Of a DNA stretch of 64,000 nucleotides, positions 4,342-44,112 are shown piece by piece. This DNA is from an uncultured Planctomycetales bacterium (GTDB lineage: Bacteria > Planctomycetota > SBBH01): contig CAYVXZ010000005.1 in assembly GCA_964455625.1 (NCBI GenBank), forward strand, positions 9,632 to 73,631. The letters are read 5' to 3'. The translations under genes were made by a program, and so were the position numbers. Positions within the stretch are counted from its first letter, which is position 1. Each line of letters starts with the position of its first letter. The notes below the pieces were generated by a model. The model saw only the letters and a list, made by a program, of their open reading frames with translations, made no database searches and was not told the DNA's origin.

Positions 4342-7300
4342 GTGCACTCCGGCCGCCATTCGGGGCAGGGTTTCGCCCTCATCCTCGCGAGCGGCCTCCT
4401 GATGCTGATCCTCTTGAGCGCCTCGTCGCTTCTCGCGGTCGCCAGACAGGCGCTCACCCGCTCCGGGCACGCGACGGACCGGACACAGGCGGCCTTGACC
4501 GCGGCGAGCGGCATGGCATACGCCAGTATCCGCCTTCAGCAGGACCCCTATCCGAAGTATCTCGACACGCCGACCACACGCCCCGACACCTGGCATGCCC
4601 GCGAGCCGTTCAATACCCCCCTGGACCGGATGCTCAACGTTTCGTACGCCAGGGGGGAGCCCTGGAAGGACACGATCATTCTCGCCTCGGACGGCCACGA
4701 CAACGACGGGGACGGACTGAAGGACGAACCGGGGGAGGGGAACGGCCTCTTCACTCCCGGCGAGCGATATCAGGACCTGGACGGCGACGGACGCTACACC
4801 TCCTGGAGCGGGAGGTTGCGCGCCGGCGCCAGGACATCCGGCAATCGCTTCTCCCTGTCGATCGGGTCCCAGGACGGGAAGATCCCCGTCAATGGGGGTT
4901 ACCTGGACGATCTGGATCGCCAGCCCTACCCTTTCATCTTCGGCGGGAGCTGGGGCGTCCCCGATCACCGGGACCCCGCGGCCAGCCCCTATCACAAGGG
5001 GCTGGTCCATGTTCTCAACAACCTGGGCGCCGTAACCCGACCGGGCGGTGCCGGCACGCGGCGCCGGGATTACCGGTCGGGAATCCCCCTTGGGAGCGGC
5101 CACACCTTCGAGTTTTCATGGCTCGGCGAGGATCTCATCGCGGGCCGGCCGCCGGGAGGATATCGCTCGCTCGCGCAGATCCGGCAAACGCTTGCAGGCC
5201 TCGGGTATGCCCCGGCAGAGTGCGACCTGTTCCTTCCTTTCCTGGATGTCGGCCCCTACACCGGACCGATCGAGAGCGGCCGCGTTTCATACCGGAGTTC
5301 CGCCCCTTGGCCTTTCCCCGGCGCGGAAGGGGGCAATCCGGACGACTTCCCCTTTTCCCCTCCGATCGTCCTGTCGACCGCCCCGCGGGAGGTCTTGGCC
5401 TCCCTTTGGCGGTACCTGGCGAGTTCGCAGGACCTGCCCCCCGTCGCCAGCTCGCCGGCGGTGCCCCTGCAGCGCGTCTACGGCGAACCGGCCGGCGACA
5501 TGGCCACGGCCTCGAGATCCGGCGGCACCCCGATCCGGTTCCGCGCGGACGACTATTACGCCTACCACTTCATGATCTTCCCGGACGAATCGGAACTCCT
5601 GGCCGATACGGCCGCCTCGCTCCGCACCGGAGGTTCCGTATCATGGCAGGAGCTTTACAGCGCCATCCTCCAGAAGATCCCGACCCTGTTCTCTGTCGAT
5701 TACAACAATCTTGGAGGGGCCTCTTCTCTCTGCCCGGTCTACCAGCGCGCCTGGTTGCATGCGAAGGCGGATCTCGCCTTCCGGGCCCTGGCCCTGGACG
5801 CCCCCCCGATGGCCGGCCATTTTCACGGCATCGCGACCTGGGCTGGCTGGGGGCTCGACCGCGACCCCTCGACCAGCCCAGTCGAACAAGGGTCCGGCGT
5901 CGGCCTCGACTGGATCTACCAGGGGCCGATCCCCGCCAGCGAGACGTCCCCGCTGCCAAGCCGACCCTACGATGACGAGTACTGGTCCCTCACCAGCAGG
6001 CGCATCAAGCCGCAGGGAATCACGACCGCGCCCCCCTTGAGATTCCAGATCGAGTGCGCCGGGTCCGCAGGGCGGTCCAGGTACCGTGCGAACGGAAGTT
6101 TTCGGGCGGCCGATCCCCTCTATTTCGCCAGCCAGGAGGATTTCGAGATCCTGCGGCAAAACGTCTTCCTGGACCGGATCGGCGGCATCTCGACAGTCCT
6201 GGACGATCCGCCTCCTCCGGACCGCCGCGTCCGGATGTCGGACGGTGGACGGATCTACCCGCACCTGATCTCCCTCCCGAGAACGAACAGGCGCTCCACG
6301 TTCGCTCCCGGATCGGCGCCGTTTTTTCCGGCGGAGGGATACTCGCGCCTCTACGGCGCATTGACCCTCGCGCCCCGGGAAATCGGCCGGCGCGGCGCCC
6401 AACTGTACTGGACCTTTCCGGAGGATTTCGACGGCGTGCAGGACGCCCCGGGCACGGACGATTGGCACGAAGCGGACCCTGCCTATTCCCATCCCCCCTC
6501 CGACCCCATGGAGATTTACGAGAACGCGACCGATTTCTGGCCGGAGTTCCACCAGTACCGGAATCCCTCCCACACGGACGGAATGTTAAGCACTCTCCAC
6601 CCCTTTCAATGTCCGGGAATGAACGCCCCTTCCGGCACTCCCCTTCTGGCCTTCTCGGCCGATTTCTGGATCAACCTGTCCTACCCCTATCATGACAATC
6701 GCGCTGTTTTCCTGGTCTACAACGCGCAAAGGATAAGCGAGGGACACTGGAATCAGCATTTCATCAAGCTTTACGTCTCACGAGGCGATCCGTCCCAACC
6801 CGGAAAGCGCCCGTATGACGCCACGTTCCGGTTGAGCGTGGACGCCAAGGATCTCATGGGAATCCCCCGCGCCACGGCATCGCCCGCCTGGTTGATCCGG
6901 TCCCCCGGTCCAGCGTCCCCGCATACGCCCGGAATCTTCCACGTCGCCGTGACGGTCGCGAAGGATCCCCTGCTGGATGAAATGACCTACCGTCTCTACG
7001 TCAACGGCAGCAAATTCGCGGCTGACGGGTCCGAGATGAAACACCCGCACCTGCACCTGATCGCCGTCAAGGACGGTGAAAGCATGACTCTTTCCTACGG
7101 CGACGAGCTTCGCCTCTTCGAGACGGCCCTTCCCTCCGGGGAACCGGGCAGCATCTATTCAGCAGGCCGGTTCGTCCCCAGCGGCGCCTACAAATCCCCG
7201 CTGTATGTCTTTCACGAACCGGCCTCCTTCGGAAAGAGCCAATGGCTGGGGCTCATCCCCCCCGGCTTCGTCGACGTCTCGGGACAGCCTGTCGATCCAT

Positions 7301-7554
7301 TCCGCATCCTCGTCGAGGCGTACGGCACCGCGCCGGGCGACCTCGCCCATCCGAACCTGATCTGGCAAAGGACACTCGGGCCGTCCGGCACGGTCGACGA
7401 TCTGCCCCCGAACCCCGTCAAGTCGTTTCGCTACACGATCGAAATCGACTGCAACGACGTCGTCGGCGTCCTGGATGACTCGCCGGTTTTCGAATCGATC
7501 TGGTTCACGCTGCGGCGCCGCGGGCGGGCGCCTGTCTGGTCGGAGTGGGAATAG
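4342..7554 (+). CDS. giant (~1070 aa) pseudopilin-like protein, paralog 1 (GspK/PilX-like N-terminus, DxDxDG loops, LamG-like C-terminus)
   Basis: Start taken as the in-frame GTG at 4342, which has a GGGG RBS-like run upstream and yields VHSGRHSGQGFALILASGLLMLILLSASSLLAV (prepilin/PilX_N-like hydrophobic helix). Shares NPS[FY]ARGEPW, DGDGRYTxWSGRLR, PVNGG, GRPxGGYRS and 'LSTAPREVLASLW' (LNxAP, HhH/SAM-like) motifs with the proteins at 36890 and 40254. The C-terminus FHVAVTVAK...YRLYVNGSKF resembles a LamG/ConA-like domain. Confidence 0.6.
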   Translation: MHSGRHSGQGFALILASGLLMLILLSASSLLAVARQALTRSGHATDRTQAALTAASGMAYASIRLQQDPYPKYLDTPTTRPDTWHAREPFNTPLDRMLNVSYARGEPWKDTIILASDGHDNDGDGLKDEPGEGNGLFTPGERYQDLDGDGRYTSWSGRLRAGARTSGNRFSLSIGSQDGKIPVNGGYLDDLDRQPYPFIFGGSWGVPDHRDPAASPYHKGLVHVLNNLGAVTRPGGAGTRRRDYRSGIPLGSGHTFEFSWLGEDLIAGRPPGGYRSLAQIRQTLAGLGYAPAECDLFLPFLDVGPYTGPIESGRVSYRSSAPWPFPGAEGGNPDDFPFSPPIVLSTAPREVLASLWRYLASSQDLPPVASSPAVPLQRVYGEPAGDMATASRSGGTPIRFRADDYYAYHFMIFPDESELLADTAASLRTGGSVSWQELYSAILQKIPTLFSVDYNNLGGASSLCPVYQRAWLHAKADLAFRALALDAPPMAGHFHGIATWAGWGLDRDPSTSPVEQGSGVGLDWIYQGPIPASETSPLPSRPYDDEYWSLTSRRIKPQGITTAPPLRFQIECAGSAGRSRYRANGSFRAADPLYFASQEDFEILRQNVFLDRIGGISTVLDDPPPPDRRVRMSDGGRIYPHLISLPRTNRRSTFAPGSAPFFPAEGYSRLYGALTLAPREIGRRGAQLYWTFPEDFDGVQDAPGTDDWHEADPAYSHPPSDPMEIYENATDFWPEFHQYRNPSHTDGMLSTLHPFQCPGMNAPSGTPLLAFSADFWINLSYPYHDNRAVFLVYNAQRISEGHWNQHFIKLYVSRGDPSQPGKRPYDATFRLSVDAKDLMGIPRATASPAWLIRSPGPASPHTPGIFHVAVTVAKDPLLDEMTYRLYVNGSKFAADGSEMKHPHLHLIAVKDGESMTLSYGDELRLFETALPSGEPGSIYSAGRFVPSGAYKSPLYVFHEPASFGKSQWLGLIPPGFVDVSGQPVDPFRILVEAYGTAPGDLAHPNLIWQRTLGPSGTVDDLPPNPVKSFRYTIEIDCNDVVGVLDDSPVFESIWFTLRRRGRAPVWSEWE

Positions 7555-9416: not shown

Positions 9417-13076
<3,660 letters not shown>

Positions 13077-13080
<4 letters not shown>

Positions 13081-17920: not shown

Positions 17921-17921
17921 G

Positions 17922-26121: not shown

Positions 26122-26140
26122 CGCTCCAACCGCCAGGTTT

Positions 26141-26665: not shown

Positions 26666-26685
26666 CCGCCGAGGAATAATGCAAA

Positions 26686-27264: not shown

Positions 27265-28091
27265 TGATAGTTCATGGTGGACATCCGCATTTCGAACGAC
27301 GATTTAAAAGAAATCCTCCGTTCTTACTTATGGTTTTATCGGCAGTACGTTTTACTTCTTCAATCCATAGTAGGCACGACTCACCGAAAACTTTTAAAAG
27401 CTCATCCAAAATCAAAATTTAGACTAGCTCTCCCCTCTAGAACGGAAATCCAAAATCTTTCAAAAATCCCGATTGAATCATTCTCGTGCTTCTTTCCGCC
27501 TCAACGTCACTCAAAAAGCTTAAGCTCCTGAATAGCATCCAAACTATTGAAACCAATTAGTTGTGGCGGGGGCCGATCGACAAAGCTGGCCGAAGGCCAG
27601 CGATTCCACCAGGGTGGGTGGGCCCGACCCCCTATTACTCACCAGGACCTGATCTGAACGGGGCCGCCGATGGGGGCCACAAGTGGGCGGGGTGAGAGGG
27701 GCCCCTCCGGCCGGCCGAGGCGCGGCTGGCCGTTTTTGGCGGCAGGGGGCCGGTAGAGAAAAGCCGGCCCGATAGGGCCGGCACTCCCTACGGGGGTGGG
27801 TGGGGAAATAGGTCTTATTTTTTTAGGTGGAGCGGGACGCTCGCGCTCCCGGCGGCCCGCGGCGGGAACCTGGACGCGGGGCTGAACCGGCAAGGCGAGG
27901 CGCGGTCTGGCGTGAACGGGGAAGACTGCCGCTGGCTTCGCCTCGCCGCCGCCGGTTCGCAGTGAGGCGGGGGTTGGCCAGTCTCCTCCCCGCCGAACGT
28001 CCCGCGAACAGGTGAACCGCCGGTAGGGCCGCAGGCGGACTGAAAATGTGTTTTTGTTCGGGGCCAATTATGCGGAGCGCACGCGTCAGCG

Positions 28092-28283
28092 CGCGCCCCG
28101 CGGCGGGAGCGTTTTCGGGGGCCTGATGGCGCCGGGCCGGTCAGGAGGTGCAAGGCCCGGCGGCATCGGAGCGACGAGGCGGCACGGATGCCGCCGAGGA
28201 GCGTCCCCCGACAAACGCGACCGCCGGAAGGGCAAGCGAGCGAGCGTCCCCGGCGCACGCGACCGGCGGTAGGGGCCGCAGAA
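28092..28283 (+). repeat. intergenic structured repeat element, copy 1 (family of 4)
   Basis: Conserved core GGGGGCCTGATGGnGCCGGGCCGGTCAGGAGGTGCAAGGCCCGGCGnCATCGGAGCGACGAGGCGGCACGGATGCCGCCGAGGAGCGTCCCCCGACAAAnGCGACCGCCGGAAGGGCAAGCGAGCG is shared with copies at 49904, 58266 and (partial) 62170. Confidence 0.8.
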
Positions 28284-28385
28284 TACCACCCCCACCCCAA
28301 CCCTCCCCCATCAAGGGGGAGGGAGTCATCACGTGACCCGTACCCCCCCCACCCTGTCCCTCCCCCGCGACGGAGGGGGAAACTG

Positions 28386-32738: not shown

Positions 32739-32747
32739 GCGCCCGCC

Positions 32748-33365
32748 CTACTTGTTCTTCCGGTGCTTGATCTTCTCGCGCGCCTTCTCGCCGGCGCGGT
32801 CGTCCTTGTGCTCCTTGTGGAACTTCCTCTCGCGGTCGAGCTGCTCCTTCCCCTCGCGGCGCGTCAGGGAGCCGTCGCCGTCGGTGTCGGCCCGGTCGAA
32901 CCGCTTCCCCCCGAAAAGCCGCTCCTCGAGCGGCGTCGCCTCCGCCTTCGCCTCGGTGCGTGTCAGGCCTCCGTTCCCGTCGGCGTCCGCCCGGTCGAAC
33001 CGCTCCTCGCGGTAGCCGTCCTCGTCGGTGTACCCCTTCTTCCAGCGCTCCACCCCCTCGCGGCGGGCGTCGCCGGCCCGATGCCGGTGCTTCCGGCACA
33101 TCTCGTGGAAGCGGTGCCGCTTGATGCGACCGTTCTCGTCGGAAAACCGCTTCCACCAGGCGCGATCCGCCTCGGAGCCATCCGTCAGGCCCGCGGCGGC
33201 CGCCTCGTCAAAGGTGAGCTCTCCGTCGCGGTCGGCGTCCGTCTGGACGAACGTCTCCTCGTCCCTTGCTTCGAGCGATTCCACCTCCTCGGAACGCACC
33301 ACACTGCCGGCCAGAAAAGCCCCCGCTGCCAGCATCCATCTCCCCATCTTCCATCCGTTGCTCAT
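32748..33365 (-). CDS. secreted EF-hand calcium-binding protein, paralog A
   Basis: Start ATG at 33365 (MSNGWKMGRWMLAAGAFLAGSVV signal peptide; AAAGGA RBS). Three canonical EF loops: DADRDGELTFDE, DADGNGGLTRTE, DTDGDGSLTRRE. The track start at 33434 is a TTG lying inside the promoter. Confidence 0.8.
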   Translation of the reverse strand: MSNGWKMGRWMLAAGAFLAGSVVRSEEVESLEARDEETFVQTDADRDGELTFDEAAAAGLTDGSEADRAWWKRFSDENGRIKRHRFHEMCRKHRHRAGDARREGVERWKKGYTDEDGYREERFDRADADGNGGLTRTEAKAEATPLEERLFGGKRFDRADTDGDGSLTRREGKEQLDRERKFHKEHKDDRAGEKAREKIKHRKNK

Positions 33366-33418
33366 GACCCGTCCTTTCTGGCATGTATGCCCTTGTTTCC
33401 CCACGACGGGAATATCAA

Positions 33419-33434
33419 GCATATTCCGTGCCAA
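33419..33434 (-). promoter_or_regulatory. sigma-54 (-24/-12) promoter upstream of EF-hand gene A
   Basis: Minus strand reads TTGGCACGGAATATGC, i.e. TGGCACG-N4-ATGC against consensus TGGCACG-N4-TTGCW; about 54 nt upstream of the start codon. Confidence 0.6.
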
Positions 33435-33651: not shown

Positions 33652-34386
33652 CTATTTACCCGGCTCGCGGAGAGCCCCTATGCCATTCGCCGCGATCTCG
33701 CGGACGTTCCAGTCGGGATCCTCCAAGACAGCCTGAAGCCGATCCACCAGGAAGACCCGGAATGTCGGGTCATGTCCCTGCCGCGCGATGCTGATGAGCA
33801 CCGCCACGGCAGCCGAGCGGAGTTCCGGATCGGAATCTTCCAGGACCGGCACCAGCCGCTTCCCTTCCTCGATACGGTTCAGGATTCCGAATCCCCGGAT
33901 GGCATCCTTCCGGAATCCCGTACACGGATCGTCCAGAAACATCCCGAGCACCTCGCCGCCGGGCTCCGGCCAGCGCCCCCGCGCGGCACGGGCGAAGGCC
34001 TGAAGCGATCCGGGCCCCAACCCGGCGAACAACGCGTCCACCACTCGCGTCCATCCCGAGTCCTCCGGAGCAAGCGCAAGCGACCGGAGGCGCAGGGACG
34101 CCATGCGCATGTGGTGCCGCAAGCGGTCGCACAGGTTCCGGACCTCCGGATCCGGATCGTCCCCGGGAAGGAGCCGCGCGATCTCCGGATGGCGATTGCC
34201 CCAGTCGCACAGGCGATCGAAGGCCGTCTGGCGCGTTTGCCAGGAATCAGCCGACAACGCTCCCACTTGGGCCTTCACCGCATCGTCATGCGGAGGGGCC
34301 GGCTCGGCGATGGCGGTGAATCCCGCGAGAAAGGCTGCCGGGACGGAAAGCCGGCGGCGGCACCCGGGCCCCACTATCAGGCGCAT
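33652..34386 (-). CDS. secreted HEAT-repeat protein
   Basis: 244 aa; signal peptide; PEIARLLPGDDPDPEVRNLCDRLR, LEDSDPELRSAAVAVL, LEDPDWNVREIAANGIG are HEAT/PBS-type repeats. Confidence 0.6.
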   Translation of the reverse strand: MRLIVGPGCRRRLSVPAAFLAGFTAIAEPAPPHDDAVKAQVGALSADSWQTRQTAFDRLCDWGNRHPEIARLLPGDDPDPEVRNLCDRLRHHMRMASLRLRSLALAPEDSGWTRVVDALFAGLGPGSLQAFARAARGRWPEPGGEVLGMFLDDPCTGFRKDAIRGFGILNRIEEGKRLVPVLEDSDPELRSAAVAVLISIARQGHDPTFRVFLVDRLQAVLEDPDWNVREIAANGIGALREPGK

Positions 34387-34461: not shown

Positions 34462-36774
34462 ATGAATTATTTATGTATTATTATTGATTCATTCATTAGA
34501 ATCCCGGCCAGAGTGCCCCGCCATCCGGCCGTCACGACGTTCCTGACATCGGAATCGGATCTCCTCACCATTCTGGAGGGGAGCCCGGAACCGCTCGACC
34601 CGGTTCTGCAAGCGACGCTCGCCATCCGCCGGGCGCTCGCCGGGCTTGTCCCCGCCGAGCGGGCGAACGCGTTGGCCGCCGGGCTGGCCGAGCCGGACCA
34701 GGATCCGGAGTTGCGCCTCATCCTGCTCGCCACTTGGGCAACCCTCTCCGGCACCCGCGAGCGTCACGATGAGATGCGAGCCATCCTGCGACAGGCCCAG
34801 GGGCTCGTCGGCCGGGAAACGCCTCCCGAGCTGCGCGTCATGGTCATGCTCTGCGAGGGGTACTATCTTTCCCTGCGCGGAGACCGGCGGCGGCGCGAAA
34901 CGCTCCTCAAGCAGGCGCTGGGAACCCTGACCCGGGCCTCTCCGTGGTATCCGCGCGTCGCCTGGGAATGGGCGGTGGTCTTGGCCCAGCAAGGACGCGC
35001 GAACGAGGCGGAACCCGAGATACGGTTTCTTGATGCCAAGGAAAGCGAGTCCTTCCCGCAGGGGCGACTCGCCCTCGTGAGGTTGTTCGACGCGGTCGAG
35101 TCCGGGCGATGGCGCCAGGCCCGGGTGATGATCGAGCGAATCGACCGCGACCGCCGCACCCTCCGCCCCTGGCAGGCGCTCCTGCGGATCGCCGAACAGT
35201 ACCGGGCGCTGGCGGGCCTGGCGGATCCGAGAGGAGGCGCCCCTACCGAACCGTTCGCGCGCGAGGAGGAGGATCTTCTGCTCGTGACGCGCCATCTCCT
35301 TGCCGGACGGGCGCAGCTCGCCTTGCGCGCGGCCCTGGAGCGCCATGCGCGCTTTCCGCTCCGGTCGATGGAGGCCGGCTTCACCGGCTGGGACATGATC
35401 CGGGCGGAGCTCGCCTGCGGAAACGGGGAATCGGCCCGCCGGCTGGTTGCCGCGCGCCGAAAGCGCGGAAGCCCCCACTGGCTGGACGGGTTCTTCCTGG
35501 CCCGCGCCGAGCGCCTGGCGGGAAAGTCACGGGGGGTGGCCCGGTTGCGCGAAGCCCGCCGGGAGGCCGCCCGCCTCGGCGCCGACGGACGGTTCGAACT
35601 CGAGCTTCGACTCGCCACCGAGATCCCCCCCGGAGATCCGTTCCTTGCTGGCGTGCACCTTCAGGAAAGGAGCGTTCGTCCTGTCGGGACATCCGCTGTC
35701 GATGTCTGCGACTCCGTCATGGATCCGTTGGTCGGGACCGATCCGGAAATCGTTCGCGTCCGGGAGGTGGTCCGCCGGCTCGCTCCGCTGAAGGTGACAG
35801 TCCTGGTGACCGGCGAAACCGGAACCGGAAAGGAGCTTGTCGCGCGCGCCCTGCACGAGGCGGGGCCACGGCGGGCAAGACCTTTTGTCGCTGTCAACTG
35901 CGGTGCGATCGCGGAGGCGCTCCTCGAGTCTGAGCTTTTCGGCCACGAGAGAGGGGCGTTCACGGGAGCCGAACGGGCTCATCGAGGACTTTTCACCGCG
36001 GCGACCGGCGGGACCCTGTTCCTGGACGAAATCGGCGAGGTCTCCCCGCGCCTGCAGGCCGCGCTCCTGCGGGTCCTCGAGAATGGCGAGGTGCGTCCCG
36101 TCGGGTCGGCCGGCGCAGAGCGGATCGACTGCCGCGTCGTCGCGGCGACGAATGCCGACCTCGACCGGCTCGTCGACAGGGGCCTCTTCCGGAAGGACCT
36201 CCTCTATCGTCTGCGGCGTCTGGAGATCGCGCTCCCTCCGTTGCGGGACCGCCCGGCGGACATCCTGCCGCTGGCGCTTCACTTCCTGAACCAGGACCGC
36301 CCCACCGGACGGACCGCGACGATGACGCCGGATCTCGCCGATTGCCTGCGCGCCCATCTCTGGCCGGGAAATGTCCGGGAGCTCAAGAACCGGATCGAGC
36401 GGATGCTGCTCCTGGCCGGCGAGAAGGCGGTCTATACCCGCGAGGACTTCGACCTCGCGCCGCTCTCGCCGCGGGAGCCTGCGCCGGCCGCCAGTGCCGG
36501 CACGCCCGCGGACCCGCGCGACCCGTTGCAGGTTTTCACCGAGGGGCGGTCGACCCTGCGGCGCCGGGAACGACTGAAGGCTCTCTTCCATGAGCACCGG
36601 ATGCTCACCCGGGCAGAGGCGGTCCGCATCCTGGACGTGGCCCCCGGGACCGTCACAACGGACCTCAAGGCGCTGGCCGCGGAAGGGGTGATCGAGAAGG
36701 TGATGCCCCGCCGCGCGCCGCGGACCCATTTTTTCCGGCTTCGCACAAGGCCGTCCGACAGGATTATGAAATGA
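34462..36774 (+). CDS. sigma-54-dependent transcriptional activator (enhancer-binding protein) with ~430-aa non-canonical helical N-terminal domain
   Basis: [57 protein letters not shown]...[25 protein letters not shown]...[27 protein letters not shown] (AAA+ sigma-54 interaction domain with GAFTGA) plus a C-terminal HTH. The first 15 codons are very AT-rich, so the true start may be the downstream GTG near 34509. Confidence 0.85.
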
Positions 36775-36889
36775 ATCAAGAATGAACCGTTTTCAGGAAT
36801 AACGGAAACCGGTCGCACGCGACCTGCTCTAACCCCTTCCAGGTCAATCCCCAAAAACATCCGCCGCGCGCACCCCGATTGCATGCAGA

Positions 36890-39800
36890 ATGGCCATGCC
36901 CGCACATACGCTTCCCCGGACCGGTGGCATCGCCCTCATTCTGACCGCCGGCATCATGACCCTGCTCGGCCTCATGGCGGCCCTTTTCACGGGAGGCCTC
37001 CGGCTGACCTCCGAGACAGGCCACCGCCGGACGGATCAAACCCGCTCCGGGCTTGTGAGCGAAAGCGGCCTGTCGTACGCCCGATCGCGTCTCCTCGCCC
37101 GGACTGCCCCAGCGCCCGGCGCGCTTTGTCGCGGAGATGACTGGACGGCGCGTGGCGACGAGATTCCTTCCCTGTCGCCCGGACAGCTCTCGAATCCCTC
37201 CTATGCACGCGGGGAGCCGTGGCCGGATGACGGAGACGGCATCCACAGACCAGGCGAGGAGCGATCAGGCCCTGGCTGGATCGACCTAGATCGGGACGGC
37301 CGCCTCTCCGCCTGGAGCGGCCGCCTCCGGCTGGAAGCCACCCCGTTCGGCGCCCGCTTCGCCCTCCGGATCCGTTCGGACGCAGGGCTCGTTCCGGTCA
37401 ACGCGGGCGAGCTGGGAAATCCCGACGCCGATCACGACTGCGACGGGATCCCGAACCGGCTCGATCCGGAATACCATGCCTGGCTTGCGGTCAATCCGGC
37501 TCCATGGGCCGATCCGGGCGCCGGTATGAACGTTTCCCTCGTGAACCTTCTCGACAGCCTCGGCGCCCTCCTGGACATCTCGGACGCCGCGCCAGAGCCG
37601 TATACACCGGCCCTCGGAAACCGGCCTCCCACGCCGCGCCACGGCGAGATCCTCCTTTCTCGCCTTGGCCGCCGGATCGTCGCGGCGCGCCCACGCGGCG
37701 GCTACACATCGGTGGAGGAACTTCTCCCCGTCCTCGGAGCGGAAGACTACGCCAAGTCCGCCCCTTTCCTGACGGTCGCGGGAGACCGAGCTCCCCGCAA
37801 TGCCGATGTCGTCGCAGGCCACGCCGATACGGTCACCCGGGCAATGCTGGTCCGCGCCGATCAGCCGCTCATCGACCTGAACAGCGCGCCCGAGACAGTG
37901 ATCCATGCAGCCCTCCGGATCGCTGCCGCCGGGGGCCTCTATCACAACGATCCGTCCCATTACAACTGGGCAGAGGATGCCGAGTTCCAGGCGATCGTCA
38001 CCGAATCTTCCTACGTGCGGATCCTGGAAGGCGAGGCAGCCGGAATCGCCGCACTCATCGGGCAGGAGCGCCGCACCGCCCCGATCCGGAGCTGGAAGCG
38101 CCTGCTGGAGATGCTTGCGGCCTTCTCCGACGTCGCCGACGACCCCTTCACGGCCGTCGACGACCGGACCGGCCAGGCGCGAGAAACGCGCCAGCGCCTG
38201 ATCGAAGATCTCGTTCTCGCCTCTTTCAGCGCGGAAATGTTCGTCCCCGACCCGTTCTCGCGGAGCCGGGATACGCTTGAGGTCGAACGCGAAGGGATCC
38301 CGACGGGCGAGGATCTTTTGCGCGCGCGCCAAGTGCCGTCGGCGGCGCTCCTGGCGCAACAGACCGCCCCCTACAACGTCTCGGGACTGATCCCGCCGCC
38401 GGGTACCGCCGCGCAGCTCCACATGCCGGTGAACTATTTCGAACCGCCGCCGCCGGAGCCGGGCCGTCCGACGCCGGCCCACCTGAAGACCCGGCCGAAC
38501 GCCATTTTCGGCCTGGCGGGCGGGCCATGCCGGTACGACATCGAGTCGGAAGGACGTTCCGGGCCGGATCACCGGCAGACCCGGCGTTCGGCGCGGGCTT
38601 CCTGCGGCCTGCCGCTTGCGGCCTGGCGGGCGACCGGGCAGGAGGATTTCGAGATGCAGCGTCCAGCTCCGGGCTCCCCGCGCTTTTTCGAGAGGGGAGA
38701 CCTCCTCTGCGAAGGCTCCATCCCCCCCGTCAGAAACGGTATCCAAAGCCATCCCCGCTTCCCGATTTCCAGCTACACGCCCGAAGCGCTCCTGGCCGAT
38801 TTTCCGGACATGACCGACGATCAGCAGGAAAGGCTCCACGAAGCGCATGCCTGCCCCGTCCTGTGGGGAGACCTGCGGTTCGCGGCCCGTCAAGCGCCGG
38901 TCTCCGAGCTCCTCGAAACGACCCCTCCGTGCGTCTTCGCCCTGCCGTTCAACGAGGATTCCGTCCCGGGTCCCGACAATCTTTACTCACCCGACGACTG
39001 GAAGGACAACTTCGGGGATCCGACCCGCCGCCCGGAGGGGTCCCCCATGGTGCGATGTTACAGCGGCGAAGGCCGCGGGATGGCGATCGGCGGATGGGCC
39101 CGCTTCGGGCCGTGCGGCCTGCGCCTCTTCCCCCTGGCAATGGTGGGCGAAGAAACGGGCGAACCGGAGGACGGCGATTTCTTGTCGTTCCGGTGGGACG
39201 ACGGCTCGGCCCCCTGTCCGCTGACGCGCGGTGACTACCACGACTCGGACGGGTCGACAAACGTCGTCTCGGGGGGCGGGGAGATCCGGAACGCCACGAT
39301 CACATTCTCCTTTCCGGCGCGGGGCGGCGAGACGCCGGTCGCCCAGTACGGGGATACCGAGTTTACCGTCCAGTTCGAATCGCAGCCGGTTGGCGGCGCG
39401 AGCGGCGCTGGCGTCGACGGGGATGAAGGCGGCAAAGGGGGAATGGGCGGGGGAGGAAGCGGAGGCGAGGAAGAGGAAGAAGAGGAGGAAGAGATCGACC
39501 AGGAGGATATCTATTTTTCCTACCTGAAGATCCGCGTCCTGCCGGGGGACATCCTCATGCTCTCGATGCAGGACGGGAGCTCGGCCCCGGCCATGCCGCC
39601 TCCCGTGCCGTTCGCGTCGGGCCGGCGGTGGCGCCACGCGGCGGTAACGATCGACGGCGGGACGGACCCCGACGACGGCATCGCCCATGCGAGCGCCTGG
39701 ATCGACGGCGTCCTCGCGACGACCGCTCCCTTCACGCTGGATACCGGTCGCTTCCCCGCCGACAAGAAGCCGACGAGCGGCGCCCTGCGCCTCAAGATCG

Positions 39801-40267
39801 TCCAGGGTCCCCTCGACGACCTGAAGTTCTTCAACGCCACGATGAGCGCGCAGCAGATCCAGGACGAGGCGACGCGGGCGTTCCTGCGCCACGAGACGTC
39901 CGGGTCGTACCTCTCGGGCCTTCTGACCTTCGACCAAGGCCGCTTTCCCGGAGGCGCGGCGCTCACGGGCGCTTCCTGGAGCGCCTTCGCACCGGCCGCC
40001 TGCCGGGGCCCGACTGCCCCCATGACATTTACCGTGTACGCTTACGGAAATGATCCGACCGCCCCTCCCCTCGGCGAGGCGAACTTCGACTGGGACGGAA
40101 GCCCGGAGGCGCTCCAGCAAGCGGACTTCCGCCTCCCTCCCTGCCGGCATTTCCGGTGGCAGGTCGTCATGCGGTCAGCAAGCCCCGCCGACACGCCGAT
40201 CCTGGAGGAGTTCCGCGTCCACTACGCGCGGCCGGGAGCGTCCTGGACGACCTATGCCGCGGACTGA
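36890..40267 (+). CDS. giant (1125 aa) pseudopilin-like protein, paralog 2
   Basis: MAMPAHTLPRTGGIALILTAGIMTLLGLMAALF (prepilin/PilX_N-like); NPSYARGEPW, DLDRDGRLSAWSGRLR, PVNAGELGNPDADHDCDG, RPRGGYTSVEELL, IDLNSAPETVIHAAL (HhH/SAM-like as in GspK/ComEA); acidic Gly/Glu low-complexity linker; C-terminal WRHAAVTIDGG...AWIDGVL is LamG-like. Confidence 0.65.
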   Translation: MAMPAHTLPRTGGIALILTAGIMTLLGLMAALFTGGLRLTSETGHRRTDQTRSGLVSESGLSYARSRLLARTAPAPGALCRGDDWTARGDEIPSLSPGQLSNPSYARGEPWPDDGDGIHRPGEERSGPGWIDLDRDGRLSAWSGRLRLEATPFGARFALRIRSDAGLVPVNAGELGNPDADHDCDGIPNRLDPEYHAWLAVNPAPWADPGAGMNVSLVNLLDSLGALLDISDAAPEPYTPALGNRPPTPRHGEILLSRLGRRIVAARPRGGYTSVEELLPVLGAEDYAKSAPFLTVAGDRAPRNADVVAGHADTVTRAMLVRADQPLIDLNSAPETVIHAALRIAAAGGLYHNDPSHYNWAEDAEFQAIVTESSYVRILEGEAAGIAALIGQERRTAPIRSWKRLLEMLAAFSDVADDPFTAVDDRTGQARETRQRLIEDLVLASFSAEMFVPDPFSRSRDTLEVEREGIPTGEDLLRARQVPSAALLAQQTAPYNVSGLIPPPGTAAQLHMPVNYFEPPPPEPGRPTPAHLKTRPNAIFGLAGGPCRYDIESEGRSGPDHRQTRRSARASCGLPLAAWRATGQEDFEMQRPAPGSPRFFERGDLLCEGSIPPVRNGIQSHPRFPISSYTPEALLADFPDMTDDQQERLHEAHACPVLWGDLRFAARQAPVSELLETTPPCVFALPFNEDSVPGPDNLYSPDDWKDNFGDPTRRPEGSPMVRCYSGEGRGMAIGGWARFGPCGLRLFPLAMVGEETGEPEDGDFLSFRWDDGSAPCPLTRGDYHDSDGSTNVVSGGGEIRNATITFSFPARGGETPVAQYGDTEFTVQFESQPVGGASGAGVDGDEGGKGGMGGGGSGGEEEEEEEEEIDQEDIYFSYLKIRVLPGDILMLSMQDGSSAPAMPPPVPFASGRRWRHAAVTIDGGTDPDDGIAHASAWIDGVLATTAPFTLDTGRFPADKKPTSGALRLKIVQGPLDDLKFFNATMSAQQIQDEATRAFLRHETSGSYLSGLLTFDQGRFPGGAALTGASWSAFAPAACRGPTAPMTFTVYAYGNDPTAPPLGEANFDWDGSPEALQQADFRLPPCRHFRWQVVMRSASPADTPILEEFRVHYARPGASWTTYAAD

Positions 40268-43200
40268 CCGCGCCCGGACCGGCGTCGTCCTCGCACTGAC
40301 GAGCGGCCTGCTTACGGCTTTGGCGTTCGCTGTCCTCATTTTCACGCAGATCGTGCGGATCTCCGCTACTGTCCTGTCGGCCGCCTCCGGACGCGCGGAC
40401 GGGGAGCTGGCAGCCGAAAGCGGAATGCATTGGGCGGCGGGGCATCTCGCCGAAAAACCCGCCCGTTTCGACATCCCGCGAACAGCGGTCGCCCGTCCCG
40501 ACGACTGGCAGTACCGGGACGGCGCCGAGTATCGCTGGACTCCAGATGGACCTGATCCCCTCCCGGAGGACCTGCAGGAAAGCTTCAACCCCTCCTTCGC
40601 CCGCGGCGAGCCCTGGCATGACGCGGACGGAGACGGGCGTTACTCCGCGGACGAAATCTGGACGGACCTCGACGGCAATGGACGCTACACCGCCTGGAGC
40701 GGCCGCCTGCGGGGTCCGAGACCCCCCTTGGGGCATTCCTTCTCGATCCGGATCGACCCGGGCCCCTCTTCGCGCGTCAATGTCAACGGAGGGGATGTCG
40801 GGAAGCCATGGTCCGCGACCGCTCCGTGGAGGTTCAAAGGACTCCCCGCTGACTCCGGAAACGATCAGCTGGCATGCCACCTGAACCTGTTGGGAGCCTC
40901 TCTCGGGATCAGGGACTACACGATCGCGAACGTGGACAATGCTGCGATCAAGCCGGTGCTCGTCTCGGACCTGGGTGCGGAAATCCTGTCACGCCGACCG
41001 GTCGGCGGGTTCCGGTCACGGAACGACCTGGCGCGCGCCCTGATCGACGGCGGGGCGCTGACGCGCGACCAGTGGAGTCGCCTGTCGCCTCATCTGGCCC
41101 TGCACGAGACCCGGAACACCGCCGGACGGACCTGGCTCGACCTGAACGGCGCCCCGCGCGCCGTCCTGGCCTCGTTCTGGATGCACCGGAGAGGTGGGGC
41201 GACCTCCCCCTGCCTTTCCTATTCGGGTGCGGATCTCCTGATCGGCGGGACGCCGGTCTTGGACCCCTGGACACAGACCAACTGGGGTGCATCGGCCTTC
41301 GTCTTTCCGGAGGAGGCCACGACCATGGCAGACGAGATACACCTCGCCAAGCGTATGTTCGGGATGCTGGAAAGCTATCTCGAGGTCTTCCGGACGCTGT
41401 GGGAATCCCTCCAGGGTCCCGACGGGCATCTTTGTCCGGATGACCCCACGACATCAATCCCGGAGCCGGCGCTCTACGCCACCGAAAAGGCGCGGATCCT
41501 CATGGCCGCCTCCTTCCCGGACGCCGTGACGCAGAACGGATCGAGCGGCGGATCGCAGATCGGTCGCTTGATGGGGGTCCTGTCCTCGGTGGGAAGCTGG
41601 GAGTGGGACCCGGACGACATCCAGGGAAACGATGTCCTGGCCGTCAACCTCAAGACAATCCCTGAAGGAACCCGCATCATCCCTCTGGACGGCGACGGCT
41701 ACCACGAAGCCAGCCCCTATTCCGGCCTGACGGGATTCGCCGCCGTCTGGCCCGACCGGGCGCTCTGGCTGGGGCCGATCCGGGATTTCGAGGTCTCCTG
41801 CCTCGCGCACTCGATTGGCGGGACCCTGGCCGTTCGTTCGGCCGACGTCCGGATCCTCACAGGGATACATCTGAACAGCCAGGAAGATTTCGAGAACCTC
41901 GGCACGATCCGGACCGGGAGCGACCCGAATGCAGGCATCCGCCGCTTCCTGACGGATGGCGTCGAGACGGCGGGGCTTTCCCGCTACGACAGGGTCCAGT
42001 CGCTCCCCGACTTCTCGAAACGCTCGCATTGGCGGGCTGGCATGACGGGGTTCGACATGAAAGTGGGAGCCCTTACGCTTGCCGAGGCGGTACCCGATTT
42101 CCCCGCTTCCCCCGCCCCGACCGCCCAGGCGGTGATGGCCCCCCACGCGGACGGGAACGAGACCCTGGCGGGCAACTGGCTCGACACGACCTACATGGGA
42201 GGACAGGACCATGTCCGTCTCAAGGGGACCTACCCGTTCGCCGACGACGGTCCGGACGCCCTCTTCGCGCACGGGGATCCGTTCGAGATCCAGCCTTCCC
42301 AGATGGCGACCGGCACCAAACCGCTCGACAAATGCGACCCCTGCTGGACCGGCAACATACGGACCTACTTCCTCTCCCTGGACGCCTCGGACGGCATCCC
42401 GGCGCCGCTGCGAAGCGGCCCTCCTCCCTGTCCGGCCTCCAGTCCCCACTCCGACCTCGCCCGGATGTGGCAGTCGGGCGGAATCGAGGCATGGGTGGAT
42501 TTCACCGGCGGGACCGTCTGGGAAGCGAGCGCCGACTTCGACTTCGGGCCCGGCCTTCTCCTTCCGCAGTCGCTGACGCTCTCCCGCGGAGAGACCCAGT
42601 ACTTTCTCGAATGGCGGTACGAGATCCCCGTTGTCTGGGAGGACCTGAACGGATCCCGGGTGGTCGATCCGGGCGACACCTACTGGATCGCTTCCAGCAA
42701 CACCGGCGACAACCGCATCGCCTGGGATATCCCGACCCGCGGCGTCCCGTGGGTCCGTCCGCTTCCGGACCACCTGGTCGTCGAATGGCAGACGCTCCGC
42801 TACGTCCCGAACCGGGGGAACCTGGATGCGCTGGAGATCCGGACGCGTCTCCGGATCGTCCTGAACGGCTCCGTTGTCCACGACGCGGTGCACACGTTCA
42901 ACCAGGACTTGCAGGGAACAGCCCCCTTCGTGCCTATCCTGTCGAGGCGGATCGCGGCCGACGGCCGCTTTGACTCCCAGCTCGCGATCAAGTGCTACGC
43001 CGATCAAGTAGCACTCTATAACGGCTTCGGCGCCGGGGACTTCCGGACAGCAAATCCACGTCCCTGCCGGGACCGATTCGAGCGGCAAGGATGGTACGAA
43101 TCGCCGCTCCACGTCCTTCCGCAAACGATGCGCCCGCTCTGGGCTGCCTGGACCGGCGTTGCCTCCGAGCAGATGCGCGTGTCGGCCCCGCAAGCGATGC

Positions 43201-43460
43201 GGTGCCGGCTGTCCCTCTACGCAGACGCGACGGGAAAATCCGGGCGGACCGATGAGCTCGCGGGGCGCGGCGGCGAGCGGCTCGACGGCCTTCCGGCGCG
43301 CTCGTTCCGGTTCAGGGTCGACTGGGACATCCCGGACGACGACGCACTCCGGGACGCACCGAGCGGTCAGGGAGGAACCGGTGCCTTCGTCAACCCGCCC
43401 GTCTTCGAGGACCTGTGGATCGCCTTGGCCGGACGGCCTCAATGGAACTTCTGGAAGTAA
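40254..43460 (+). CDS. giant (~1068 aa) pseudopilin-like protein, paralog 3 (translationally coupled to paralog 2)
   Basis: Start ATG at 40254 overlaps the paralog-2 stop by 14 nt. MPRTDRARTGVVLALTSGLLTALAFAVLIF; NPSFARGEPW, DADGDGRYSADEIWTDLDGNGRYTAWSGRLRG, VNVNGGDVG, LSRRPVGGFRSRNDLARAL, WLDLNGAPRAVLASFW; C-terminal LRIVLNGSVVHDAV. Confidence 0.65.
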   Translation: MPRTDRARTGVVLALTSGLLTALAFAVLIFTQIVRISATVLSAASGRADGELAAESGMHWAAGHLAEKPARFDIPRTAVARPDDWQYRDGAEYRWTPDGPDPLPEDLQESFNPSFARGEPWHDADGDGRYSADEIWTDLDGNGRYTAWSGRLRGPRPPLGHSFSIRIDPGPSSRVNVNGGDVGKPWSATAPWRFKGLPADSGNDQLACHLNLLGASLGIRDYTIANVDNAAIKPVLVSDLGAEILSRRPVGGFRSRNDLARALIDGGALTRDQWSRLSPHLALHETRNTAGRTWLDLNGAPRAVLASFWMHRRGGATSPCLSYSGADLLIGGTPVLDPWTQTNWGASAFVFPEEATTMADEIHLAKRMFGMLESYLEVFRTLWESLQGPDGHLCPDDPTTSIPEPALYATEKARILMAASFPDAVTQNGSSGGSQIGRLMGVLSSVGSWEWDPDDIQGNDVLAVNLKTIPEGTRIIPLDGDGYHEASPYSGLTGFAAVWPDRALWLGPIRDFEVSCLAHSIGGTLAVRSADVRILTGIHLNSQEDFENLGTIRTGSDPNAGIRRFLTDGVETAGLSRYDRVQSLPDFSKRSHWRAGMTGFDMKVGALTLAEAVPDFPASPAPTAQAVMAPHADGNETLAGNWLDTTYMGGQDHVRLKGTYPFADDGPDALFAHGDPFEIQPSQMATGTKPLDKCDPCWTGNIRTYFLSLDASDGIPAPLRSGPPPCPASSPHSDLARMWQSGGIEAWVDFTGGTVWEASADFDFGPGLLLPQSLTLSRGETQYFLEWRYEIPVVWEDLNGSRVVDPGDTYWIASSNTGDNRIAWDIPTRGVPWVRPLPDHLVVEWQTLRYVPNRGNLDALEIRTRLRIVLNGSVVHDAVHTFNQDLQGTAPFVPILSRRIAADGRFDSQLAIKCYADQVALYNGFGAGDFRTANPRPCRDRFERQGWYESPLHVLPQTMRPLWAAWTGVASEQMRVSAPQAMRCRLSLYADATGKSGRTDELAGRGGERLDGLPARSFRFRVDWDIPDDDALRDAPSGQGGTGAFVNPPVFEDLWIALAGRPQWNFWK

Positions 43461-43513: not shown

Positions 43514-43527
43514 CGTCGCTTCGGGTC

Positions 43528-44112
43528 CTACTTGTTCTTCCGGTGCTTGATCTTCTCGCGCGCCTTCTCGCCGGCGCGGTCGTCCTTGTGCTCCTTGTGG
43601 AACTTCCTCTCGCGGTCGAGCTGCTCCTTCCCCTCGCGGCGCGTCAGGGAGCCGTCGCCGTCGGTGTCGGCCCGGTCGAACCGCTTCCCCCCGAAAAGCC
43701 GCTCCTCGAGCGGCGTCGCCTCCGCCTTCGCCTCGGCGCGGGTCAGGCCGCCGCTCCCGTCGGCGTCGGCCCGCTCGAACCGCTCGCTGTTGCGCTCCGG
43801 GTCCCCGTACGCCTTCTTCCAGCGATCGGTCCCCTGGCGGTGCCTGCGGCACATCTCGTGGAAGAGATGGCGCTTCAGGCGCCCGTTCCCGTCGGAGACC
43901 CGCTTCCACCAGGCCCGGTCGGCCTCGCAGCCGTCGGTGAGGCCGGCCGCGGCCGCCTCCTCGAACGTGATCTCCCCGTCCTTGTCGGCATCGGTCCGGG
44001 CGAACGTCTCCTCGTCCCCGGCGTCGATCGACTCCACCTCTTCGGCCCGGACGCCCCCTCCGGCGAGGCATCCCGCGACCAGGATCCATCCCATCATCTT
44101 CCCGCTTTCCAT
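43528..44112 (-). CDS. EF-hand calcium-binding lipoprotein, paralog B
   Basis: Start ATG at 44112 (MESGKMMGWILVAGC, lipobox-like; AAAGGAAA RBS). Three EF loops: DADKDGEITFEE, DADGSGGLTRAE, DTDGDGSLTRRE. The 3' 213 nt are identical to paralog A. Confidence 0.8.
   Translation of the reverse strand: MESGKMMGWILVAGCLAGGGVRAEEVESIDAGDEETFARTDADKDGEITFEEAAAAGLTDGCEADRAWWKRVSDGNGRLKRHLFHEMCRRHRQGTDRWKKAYGDPERNSERFERADADGSGGLTRAEAKAEATPLEERLFGGKRFDRADTDGDGSLTRREGKEQLDRERKFHKEHKDDRAGEKAREKIKHRKNK

What the first reader, a model, noticed from the sequence alone, without database searches (positions are those of the whole stretch)
36890..43460. Tandem, translationally coupled giant pseudopilin-like proteins (GspK/PilX-like N-terminus + LamG-like C-terminus)
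Two ~1100-aa paralogs overlap by 14 nt (ATG at 40254 lies inside the upstream gene's last codons). Both open with a prepilin/PilX_N-type hydrophobic helix (RTGGIALILTAGIMTLLGL / RTGVVLALTSGLLTALAFAVLIF) and a GspK-like helical stretch. Both carry SAM/HhH-like 'DLNxAP' motifs of the kind found in GspK/ComEA, and C-termini with a LamG/concanavalin-like signature (hAVTiDG...wIDGvl). Canonical minor pseudopilins such as GspK are only about 330 aa. A roughly 3-fold larger GspK-like scaffold carrying a lectin-like tip domain would be an unusual pilus- or pseudopilus-tip adhesin. No PilB/PilC/PilD or T2SS core genes lie in the window, so the cognate assembly machinery is unknown.
Basis: partly seen in the sequence, partly recalled or inferred. 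Interest (0 to 1): 0.85.

Follow-up and report, generated by a model that had tools for sequence, protein, structure and literature searches.

The report
Giant GspK-like lectin-tipped pilin paralogs
Two adjacent genes, plus a third elsewhere in the window, encode ~1,100-residue proteins whose front half is predicted to fold like GspK, the cap subunit of type II secretion pseudopili, and whose back half is a lectin-like domain; they belong to a large unnamed family that may form sugar-binding filament tips, which remains unproven.

Summary
Gene 1 (36890-40267, 1125 aa) and gene 2 (40254-43460, 1068 aa) are real, overlap by 14 nt and are diverged paralogs. A third paralog lies at 4342-7554.

The N-terminal ~580 residues are GspK-like:
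- The leader plus alpha-1 profile aligns to a true GspK profile (hhalign 95%, E 3e-8).
- The family N-terminus is a short basic leader, Gly, then IALVL, with no Glu5.

The C-terminal half is a ConA/LamG-type jelly roll plus a second beta-sandwich. Its matches include the lectin-bearing minor pilin PilC of S. sanguinis.

The proteins fail the curated GspK and LamG HMM thresholds. They belong to an unnamed family: 190 50%-identity clusters at E<=1e-30, and all 150 best hits shown are 700-1,200 aa, most aligned end to end. Members are multi-copy, often tandem, and were never seen next to pilins or T2SS/T4P genes. The order sigma-54 activator, gene 1, gene 2 is conserved in a relative.

Best reading: giant modular GspK-type minor pilins that present lectin modules. 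Filament incorporation is inferred, not shown.

The parts
36890..40267 (+). Gene 1: 1125-aa giant GspK-like modular protein. An alternative start at ATG 36896 aligns with homolog starts.
   Evidence: ORF and translation. The same gene is called in L001. It matches the family HMM end to end.
36890..37099 (+). Gene 1 residues 1-70: short basic leader, Gly13, the only hydrophobic segment (11-37), and one continuous alpha-1 helix of about 60 residues. This is class-3-signal-like with no Glu5.
   Evidence: Helix H10-70 in the model. Hydropathy. Family N-terminal consensus from 116 sequences. hhalign to the GspK profile: 95.1% probability, E 3.2e-8. NCBIfam GspK matches residues 13-92 at E 0.022, below threshold.
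36890..38629 (+). Gene 1 residues ~1-580: GspK-fold module. It comprises alpha-1, strand 155-163, the helical HhH-containing domain ~190-446, and closing strands 539-574.
37283..37447 (+). Two DxDxDG Ca-binding-like loops (DLDRDG at residue 132, DHDCDG at residue 181). The first lies in the family-invariant block DLDGDGRFSAWSGRLRG.
   Evidence: Motif scan. Invariant columns D132, D134, G144, R145 and R147. This region has low model confidence.
37658..37918 (+). Helix-hairpin-helix region: SRLGRRIVAARPRGGYTSVEEL...PFL, followed by IDLNSAPETVIHAAL.
39047..39889 (+). Gene 1 residues ~720-1000: ConA/LamG-type jelly-roll (lectin-like) module, interrupted by a Gly/Glu-rich low-complexity loop (residues 834-869, nt 39389-39496).
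39890..40264 (+). Gene 1 residues ~1001-1125: C-terminal all-beta sandwich, family-conserved (RF..G.Y.SPLY ... RSFRY ... DTPVFE..W).
   Evidence: pLDDT is 75-92 with strands E1004-1124.
40254..43460 (+). Gene 2: 1068-aa paralog of a different subfamily, overlapping gene 1 by 14 nt.
   Evidence: Translation. Called in L001 and L002. BLASTP to gene 1: E 6e-25. Family HMM: 4e-190. Ortholog at 65.8% identity lies downstream of the gene-1 ortholog in L012.
4342..7554 (+). Gene 3: a third full-length family member (1070 aa), 32 kb upstream, next to a glycosyltransferase gene.
   Evidence: E 1e-24 to gene 2, full length; best family-HMM score, 1025 bits. The exact sequence is present in the NCBI-derived collection.
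34462..36774 (+). Sigma-54-dependent transcriptional activator (bEBP) with a TPR-like N-terminal region and a C-terminal HTH, directly upstream of gene 1. This synteny is conserved.
   Evidence: Sigma54_activat E 1.5e-64. NCBIfam hits. Gene call in L001. The same order (bEBP, gene-1 ortholog, gene-2 ortholog) occurs in L012.
36868..36883 (+). Weak sigma-54-like element GCGCAC-N5-TTGCA, 13 nt before ATG 36896. The block is conserved in the ortholog locus, but the -24 GG is degenerate.
   Evidence: Pattern search with 2 mismatches; the total number of matches in the window is no more than chance. Intergenic alignment of window against L012 shows conserved GCA[CT]-N5-TTGC[AG]TG.

Best explanation
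Genes 1 and 2, and gene 3 at 4342-7554, encode members of a large, unnamed family of ~1,000-1,200-residue modular minor pilins built on a GspK scaffold.

Shown here (the last two on predicted structure):
- Each protein starts with a short basic leader ending in Gly. This is followed by the only hydrophobic stretch of the protein and a ~60-residue alpha-1 helix.
- Residues up to ~580 are predicted to adopt the GspK fold, a pilin module with a helical, HhH-containing domain inserted in it.
- The C-terminal ~500 residues form a ConA/LamG-type lectin-like jelly roll plus a second beta-sandwich.

Inferred mechanism:
- The protein inserts in the cytoplasmic membrane by its N-terminal helix.
- The leader is removed after the conserved Gly by a prepilin peptidase encoded elsewhere.
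- The GspK-like module caps a type-4 filament (a pilus or a T2SS-type pseudopilus).
- The lectin-like modules are thereby displayed at the tip to bind glycans or other ligands.

The many diverged paralogs, often in tandem and each beside its own regulator (a sigma-54 activator here; ECF sigma plus FecR elsewhere), would provide alternative, conditionally expressed tips.
For: Structure.

Sequence.
- hhalign of the family N-terminus against a GspK alignment: 95.1% probability, E 3.2e-8.
- N-terminal consensus R-R-G|I-A-L-V-L-V-S-G-L-L, with a median 10-residue leader and Leu at +5, from 116 sequences.
- Recurrent sub-threshold T2SSK hits (10 of 45 members) and Laminin_G_3 hits (14 of 45, best 7.7e-10).
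- A single N-terminal hydrophobic segment in each protein.

Family.
- 190 representative clusters at E<=1e-30. All 150 best hits shown are 700-1,200 aa, most aligned end to end.

Genomic arrangement.
- bEBP, gene 1, gene 2 is conserved at 61-66% amino-acid identity in L012.
- Tandem family members also occur in L015 and L016.
- An ECF sigma plus FecR pair sits directly upstream of P0008.

Published precedent. Modular pilins with lectin modules sit at filament tips (PMC8179133, PMC9934059), and those papers treat GspK itself as a modular pilin.
Against: - No pilin, prepilin peptidase, assembly ATPase, platform protein or secretin gene lies in the 64-kb window or in about 150 kb of neighbourhoods around 15 other family members. 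The one exception is a small protein with a T2SSF_N domain in L008.
- Canonical GspK needs GspI and GspJ, and their genes are normally adjacent (E. coli gsp operon).
- Curated GspK models are missed by a wide margin: 14.3 bits against a 130-bit cut-off, and 13.7 bits against 24.2.
- Sequence-level similarity to GspK beyond alpha-1 is weak.
- The structural evidence rests on predicted models of moderate confidence (mean pLDDT 63-66), and the 70-150 region is poorly modelled.
- A ~120-kDa cap may be hard to pass through a secretin.
- Many paralogs per genome is unusual for a tip subunit.
Confidence: 0.5

Rival explanations
1. Filament-independent, membrane-anchored lectin-like proteins. The GspK-derived module has been exapted and the N-terminal helix acts as an uncleaved signal-anchor. 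The proteins then stay in the cytoplasmic membrane with the lectin-like modules in the periplasm or at the cell surface. There they would act as glycan-capturing or sensing proteins tied to the adjacent regulators (sigma-54 activator, ECF sigma/FecR) and to envelope and polysaccharide genes.
For: - No pilus or T2SS genes or partner pilins were seen near any of ~18 family members.
- Neighbours are regulators, exported HEAT-repeat proteins, EF-hand proteins, glycosyltransferases and a Wzz-type protein.
- The family is high-copy and often tandem.
- The products are very large, and they fail the curated GspK HMMs.
Against: - The leader-Gly-hydrophobic pattern is conserved with the same register as GspK. 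A plain signal-anchor would not need an invariant Gly and an A-L-V-L register.
- About 80% of the GspK structure is retained, not only the helical domain.
- Minor-pilin genes can lie far from the machinery genes (established knowledge of T4P systems).
Confidence: 0.33
2. DNA-binding, ComEA-like surface or periplasmic receptors. On this view the HhH motifs are the functional core, and the proteins bind extracellular DNA (for competence or biofilm matrix) rather than glycans.
Against: - The largest conserved modules are lectin-type jelly rolls.
- Gene 3 lacks the DLN.AP motif.
Confidence: 0.07
3. Sec-exported adhesins or S-layer-type surface proteins whose N-terminus is an ordinary signal peptide. 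On this view the GspK resemblance is a modelling artefact.
For: Model confidence is only moderate (pLDDT 63-66). Curated pilin HMMs (N_methyl, PilX_N) are not matched.
Against: - Two independent lines agree with the structural hit: hhalign E 3e-8 to the GspK alpha-1 and recurrent T2SSK hits.
- The hydrophobic stretch continues into a ~60-residue helix, and no Ala-x-Ala site follows it.
Confidence: 0.05

Closest known systems
GspK / XcpX, the T2SS minor pseudopilin that caps the GspI-GspJ-GspK tip complex (PDB 3CI0, 5VTM; NCBIfam NF037980; Pfam PF21687 + PF03934)
   Same: - N-terminal pattern: basic leader, Gly, (I/V)-A-L-hydrophobic, with no Glu5.
- A long alpha-1 helix.
- A pilin module with an inserted helical domain containing HhH-like (I/V)N(I/V)N-type motifs.
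   Different: - Three to four times larger (1,068-1,125 aa against ~330 aa), with ~500 extra C-terminal residues forming two beta-sandwich modules.
- Extra DxDxDG loop region after alpha-1.
- Far below the curated HMM cut-offs.
- Not in a gsp operon and with no adjacent gspI/gspJ (compare).
- Many paralogs per genome, often in tandem.
Modular type 4 pilins, especially PilC of Streptococcus sanguinis (pilin module plus ConA-like lectin module; PDB 7OA7/7OA8; PMC8179133, PMC9934059)
   Different: - PilC has a small canonical pilin module with a standard class-3 signal peptide, and it lies in the pil locus. Here the carrier is a GspK-type module with its own inserted domain.
- There is an additional C-terminal beta-sandwich.
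- The genes are orphaned from any pilus locus.
- Only the lectin part superposes (rmsd 9-22 A overall).
CofB / TcpB (T4bP minor pilins with beta-repeat and beta-sandwich domains) and ComZ of Thermus (pilin with an inserted beta-solenoid)
   Same: These are large minor pilins whose extra domains are displayed at the tip for ligand binding, as summarised in PMC8179133.
   Different: No structural hit to them was seen among the listed matches. Their domain types differ, they are about 500 aa long, and they are encoded in pilus operons.
ConA-like lectin / LamG superfamily (Pfam Laminin_G_3; BoNT/TeNT Hc-N, AbnA domain 4, sialidase CBM40, pentraxins)
   Different: Gene 1 scores below the Pfam cut-off and gene 2 has no hit. 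No ligand-binding residues could be assigned. The domain is interrupted by a Gly/Glu-rich loop.

Membership tests
T2SS minor pseudopilin GspK (NCBIfam NF037980; Pfam PF21687 T2SSK_1st + PF03934 T2SSK) | Scores above the curated HMM cut-offs | tested here: not met
   Gene 1: NF037980 scores 14.3 bits against a 130-bit cut-off, and PF03934 scores 13.7 bits against 24.2. PF21687 is not hit. Gene 2 has no hit. Among 45 family members, 10 hit PF03934, all weakly (best E 0.0042).
T2SS minor pseudopilin GspK | Class-3-type N-terminus: a short basic leader ending in Gly, then ~20 hydrophobic residues without Glu at +5 | tested here: met
   The consensus from 116 sequences is R-R-G|I-A-L-V-L-V-S-G-L-L, with a median leader of 10 residues. 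hhalign to 29 annotated GspKs gives 95.1% probability, E 3.2e-8, over this region.
T2SS minor pseudopilin GspK | Pilin fold with a helical (HhH-containing) domain inserted into it | tested here: met
T2SS minor pseudopilin GspK | Encoded in a gsp/T2SS operon next to gspI, gspJ and gspL | tested here: not met
   No such genes lie in the window or in the fetched loci around other members. No Glu5 pilin motif was found in the window or in loci L001-L010. The E. coli reference operon is.
T2SS minor pseudopilin GspK | Cleavage by prepilin peptidase and assembly on top of GspI-GspJ at the pseudopilus tip | not testable with these tools
   This needs the complete genome and experiments.
Modular type 4 pilins (sensu PMC8179133) | N-terminal pilin module recognised by the IPR012902 / N_methyl signature | tested here: not met
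   No N_methyl hit was found in Pfam scans at E<=1. Lack of the Glu5 motif is expected for the GspK/PilX type.
Modular type 4 pilins (sensu PMC8179133) | A pilin module fused to one or more extra modules not specific to filament biology | tested here: met
   A GspK-fold module is followed by a ConA/LamG-type module and a further beta-sandwich.
Modular type 4 pilins (sensu PMC8179133) | Polymerised into, or capping, a type-4 filament | not testable with these tools
   No machinery genes are in reach. Experimental localisation is needed.
ConA-like lectin / LamG (Pfam PF13385 Laminin_G_3) | HMM match above the gathering score | tested here: inconclusive
   Gene 1 scores 20.9 bits against 27.6, E 4.3e-4. 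Gene 2 has no hit. 14 of 45 family members match, best E 7.7e-10.
ConA-like lectin / LamG | Jelly-roll beta-sandwich fold of the superfamily | tested here: met
T4P minor pilin PilX (Pfam PF14341 PilX_N) | PilX_N HMM match | tested here: not met
   Only 1 of 45 members matches, at E 0.25. Genes 1 and 2 have no hit.
Sigma-54-dependent operon | An adjacent bEBP and a -24 GG / -12 GC promoter upstream of the target gene | tested here: inconclusive
   The bEBP is present and syntenic. The upstream element is GCGCAC-N5-TTGCA, with a degenerate -24, though the block is conserved in L012.

The most novel reading that the evidence does not exclude
The family defines a previously unrecognised class of type-4-filament tip. 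A single giant GspK-derived subunit, or a heteromer of tandem-encoded paralogs, would replace the GspI/J/K or PilVWX-PilY1 tip complex. It would carry its own lectin modules, and interchangeable paralogs would be switched by dedicated sigma-54 and ECF regulators.

In planctomycete-like bacteria these could be the glycan-binding component of the pili-like fibres reported to bind dextran (PMC5394234). That would give a molecular handle on polysaccharide capture by those fibres.
Probability: 0.2. Interest if true: 0.8.

Novelty: new variant of a known kind. Interest (0 to 1): 0.6.

Why it matters
GspK-type cap subunits are known only as ~330-residue proteins locked into T2SS operons. Lectin-bearing modular pilins are known mainly from small canonical pilins. 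This work finds a large, full-length-conserved family with at least 190 50%-identity clusters and no Pfam or NCBIfam model. The family joins the two ideas: a GspK scaffold carrying lectin-type modules, present in many differently regulated copies per genome.

If these proteins do cap filaments, three things follow:
- The repertoire of type-4-filament tips expands.
- It suggests how environmental, planctomycete-like bacteria might tune glycan or surface recognition.
- It provides concrete candidates for the ligand-binding part of their fibres.

If they do not cap filaments, they would be the first example of a GspK fold working outside a filament. Either way the family deserves an HMM and a name.

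Tried and rejected
- Single-sequence Pfam and NCBIfam scans gave only sub-threshold hints.
- A sequence-profile search of the PDB did not retrieve GspK. It returned only IgG-Fc-like noise, a LamG-type S-layer protein and ComEA.
- The word-indexed homolog search found only 14 relatives, even with a profile, and missed the window's own gene 2. The full HMMER scan showed the family is far larger.
- The first genome-contig scan found nothing. The second found one relative, in a MAG labelled Planctomycetales. The taxonomy of the window therefore rests on that single 31%-identical relative.
- Foldseek with the full-length model was swamped by lectin-fold hits and did not list GspK among the 50 matches shown. 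I therefore built a cropped 1-630 model.
- The afdb50 and afdb_sample libraries were unavailable.
- The small genes upstream of P0007 in L008 looked like possible pseudopilins by size. They carry ordinary signal peptides and no pilin motif.
- MacB-type ABC/HlyD genes lie near the family gene both in the window and in L005, but their gene order differs, so I did not treat this as conserved linkage.
- Cluster look-up gave no source names for any member.
- Literature searches for the run accessions found nothing relevant.
- No tRNA genes were found in the window.
Full report
**1. Observation**

The window is 64 kb of ~68% GC DNA.

ORFs 36890-40267 (+, 1125 aa) and 40050-43460 (+) exist. With the ATG at 40254 the second product is 1068 aa, and it overlaps the TGA of gene 1 (40265-40267) by 14 nt.

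A codon-usage model trained on the window picks exactly these two genes. An independent Logan assembly (L001) calls the same 1125-aa and 1068-aa proteins.

The two proteins are paralogs:
- BLASTP gives E 6e-25 with 33% identity over the first ~360 residues.
- Both match the family HMM end to end.

The quoted N-terminal helices and the IDLNSAP / LDLNGAP motifs are present. Each protein has one hydrophobic segment, at the N-terminus, and two DxDxDG motifs.

**2. Surroundings**

Pfam scans of 45 of the 47 model-called ORFs in the window found housekeeping and envelope genes. These include PrkA, GAPDH, PGK, S16, TrmD, SelA, IMPDH, RF, a molybdopterin oxidoreductase, a MacB-type ABC/HlyD system and glycosyltransferases.

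No T2SS/T4P component or classical pilin was found. A six-frame motif scan of the window also found no Glu5-type prepilin.

Directly upstream of gene 1 is a sigma-54-dependent activator (34462-36774; Sigma54_activat E 1.5e-64).

The module HEAT protein, bEBP, gene 1, gene 2 is about 10.8 kb. It is flanked by two paralogous EF-hand genes, whose 3' parts are 98% identical.

**3. What the proteins are**

*Single-sequence searches.* HMM searches gave only hints. Laminin_G_3 scored E 4e-4, T2SSK E 0.08 and NCBIfam GspK E 0.022, all below threshold.

*N-terminal model.* I modelled residues 1-630 of gene 1 with AlphaFold, without templates, from a 24-sequence alignment (pLDDT 66, pTM 0.69).
- The model has one continuous helix over residues 10-70 and a strand at 155-163.
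- It has a helical domain (~190-446) that includes the HhH elements, and closing strands at 539-574.

*Profile comparison.* I fetched the E. coli gsp operon, collected annotated GspK homologs and aligned 29 of them. hhalign of the family N-terminus against this GspK profile gives 95.1% probability, E 3.2e-8, over the leader plus alpha-1.

*N-terminal consensus.* Across 116 sequences the N-terminus is a median 10-residue basic leader, then Gly | I-A-L-V-L-V-S-G-L-L, with Leu rather than Glu at +5. This is the GspK/PilX variant of the class-3 signal peptide.

*C-terminal half.* In the full-length model (pLDDT 63) this part consists of beta-sandwiches.

**4. The family**

The word-indexed search saw only 14 relatives. 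A full HMMER scan of 1.84 billion representatives found many more:
- 2,485 hits at E<=1e-3, 573 at E<=1e-10 and 190 at E<=1e-30.
- All 150 best hits shown are 700-1,200 aa, most aligned end to end.

Of 45 members scanned against Pfam, 14 hit Laminin_G_3 (best E 7.7e-10) and 10 hit T2SSK (best E 0.0042). Nothing else recurred. No source gives any member a name.

The one relative found among GTDB representative genomes is in a MAG labelled Planctomycetales.

**5. Comparative context**

Family genes are multi-copy. There are three in this window, and at least nine distinct members in contigs from the same sample, SRR8109493.

They are often in tandem:
- The window has gene 1 then gene 2.
- L012 has a partial member at the contig start and then three members in a row after the bEBP.
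- L015 and L016 each carry a pair. L006, L008 and L013 carry two members apiece.

In L012 the order is bEBP, gene-1 ortholog (61% identity), gene-2 ortholog (65.8%). Both the pairing and its regulator are therefore conserved. The two genes are separated by 25 nt there, so the 14-nt overlap is not a conserved feature.

Other members sit behind an ECF sigma/FecR pair or next to a Wzz-type protein, ParB, glycosyltransferases and exported HEAT-repeat proteins.

No pilus or T2SS genes or small pilins were seen near any member. The only possible exception is a 198-aa T2SSF_N-domain protein in L008.

**6. Mechanism**

*Shown by computation.* The domain anatomy is a GspK-type pilin module plus lectin-like modules. 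The N-terminal signal is GspK-like. The family is conserved, multi-copy and often tandem, and this pair is linked to a sigma-54 activator.

*Inferred.* The steps would be membrane insertion, prepilin-peptidase cleavage after Gly13, capping of a type-4 filament encoded elsewhere, and display of lectin modules for ligand or glycan binding. Paralogs would act as alternative tips under separate regulators.

*Main rival.* The main rival, at about one-third probability, is that the GspK module has been exapted and the proteins remain membrane-anchored, independent of any filament. I rate a ComEA-like DNA-binding role and a plain Sec-exported adhesin as unlikely, because GspK is by far the best and most complete structural match.

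The sigma-54 promoter upstream of gene 1 is weak. It reads GCGCAC-N5-TTGCA, with a degenerate -24 GG. The block is conserved in L012 and sits 13 nt before the conserved ATG at 36896.

**7. Comparison with what is known**

The proteins work like, and are predicted to fold like, GspK. They are not GspK equivalogs:
- They fail the curated HMMs.
- They are three to four times larger.
- They carry two extra modules.
- They are not in gsp operons.

They fit the published concept of modular pilins, in which a pilin module carries a grafted functional module. Published examples include ConA-like lectins, and those papers regard GspK itself as modular (PMC8179133, PMC9934059). They lack the IPR012902-type motif used to define that set.

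I therefore classify the finding as a new variant of a known kind: a GspK-based, lectin-bearing, ~1,100-residue orphan family.

One speculative link is that pili-like fibres of planctomycetes bind dextran (PMC5394234). Lectin-tipped GspK-like caps would be candidate binders.

**8. Verdict**

- The functional claim (tip adhesin) is plausible but untested.
- Interest is 0.6.

Noticed in passing
window 4342-7554 (+): A third full-length member of the same giant GspK-like/LamG family (1070 aa) lies just downstream of a GT1-family glycosyltransferase gene (3339-4331). It is not part of the reported finding. It belongs to a different subfamily from genes 1 and 2; its closest relatives are P0020, L008_1011 and L013_1045.
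   Followed up: yes
window 32748-33422 (-) and 43528-44112 (-): Two paralogous EF-hand (Ca-binding) genes flank the 10.8-kb module HEAT, bEBP, gene 1, gene 2 as direct repeats. The pair 32747-33005 / 43527-43785 is 98% identical, and 33074-33314 / 43827-44067 is 79% identical. Each is preceded by a good sigma-54-type element: TGGCACGGAATATGCT at 33433-33418 and TGGCACGGGAAATGCC at 44181-44166. The Logan assembly breaks at these repeats. These genes, rather than or in addition to gene 1, may be the real targets of the adjacent sigma-54 activator. An EF-hand gene also neighbours the family member P0005 in L003.
   Followed up: partly
window 36868-36896; L012 ~4795-4823: A conserved block GCA[CT]-N5-TTGC[AG]TG lies 13 nt before the conserved start codon (window ATG 36896, not 36890). 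If it is a degenerate sigma-54 promoter, the transcript would be nearly leaderless. Gene 1 may start at 36896 (MPAHTLPR...).
   Followed up: partly
window 33652-34386 (-); L004 1806-3098; L008 21845-22588; L016 5078-6388: Exported HEAT-repeat proteins recur next to family members in four independent loci. They are only weakly similar to each other (27% identity between the window and L016 copies). This may be a functional partner or may be coincidence.
   Followed up: partly
window ~26100-28300: A low-GC island (0.58 against ~0.68-0.70) contains an ORF6N-domain (antirepressor-like) gene at 26141-26665 (-) and no other convincing genes. It looks like a mobile-element or prophage remnant.
   Followed up: no
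window 62663-63916 (-): An ORF with a weak RHS-repeat hit (E 5.7e-5, below the gathering score) lies in a second low-GC stretch (0.585) at the window end. An RHS/YD-repeat gene also occurs in L008 near family members.
   Followed up: no
window 10501-15470 (-): Two adjacent large genes (859 and 797 aa) carry DUF4350 / ABC_transp_aux / GIFT-like domains. They are followed by TPR, HEAT, zinc-ribbon and signal-peptidase-S26-like genes (15475-20084). This is an uncharacterised envelope-associated cluster.
   Followed up: no
window 28386-32660 (-): A molybdopterin oxidoreductase (914 aa) is followed by a fused 4Fe-4S dicluster plus NrfD-type membrane subunit (509 aa). This looks like a polysulfide-reductase / alternative-complex-III-like module. 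SelA (selenocysteine synthase) is at 48252-49649.
   Followed up: no
L012 84-14840; L015 2-5996; L016 6391-12221: Tandem arrays of two to three diverged family members, with gaps or 4-nt overlaps, recur in other metagenomes. This suggests that different paralogs may act together. In L016 the pair is followed by a DUF7948 protein.
   Followed up: partly
29 against (method note): The word-indexed homolog search returned only 14 relatives and missed the window's own gene 2 and gene 3. The exhaustive HMMER scan found 190 clusters at E<=1e-30. Family size would have been badly underestimated from the first tool alone.
   Followed up: yes
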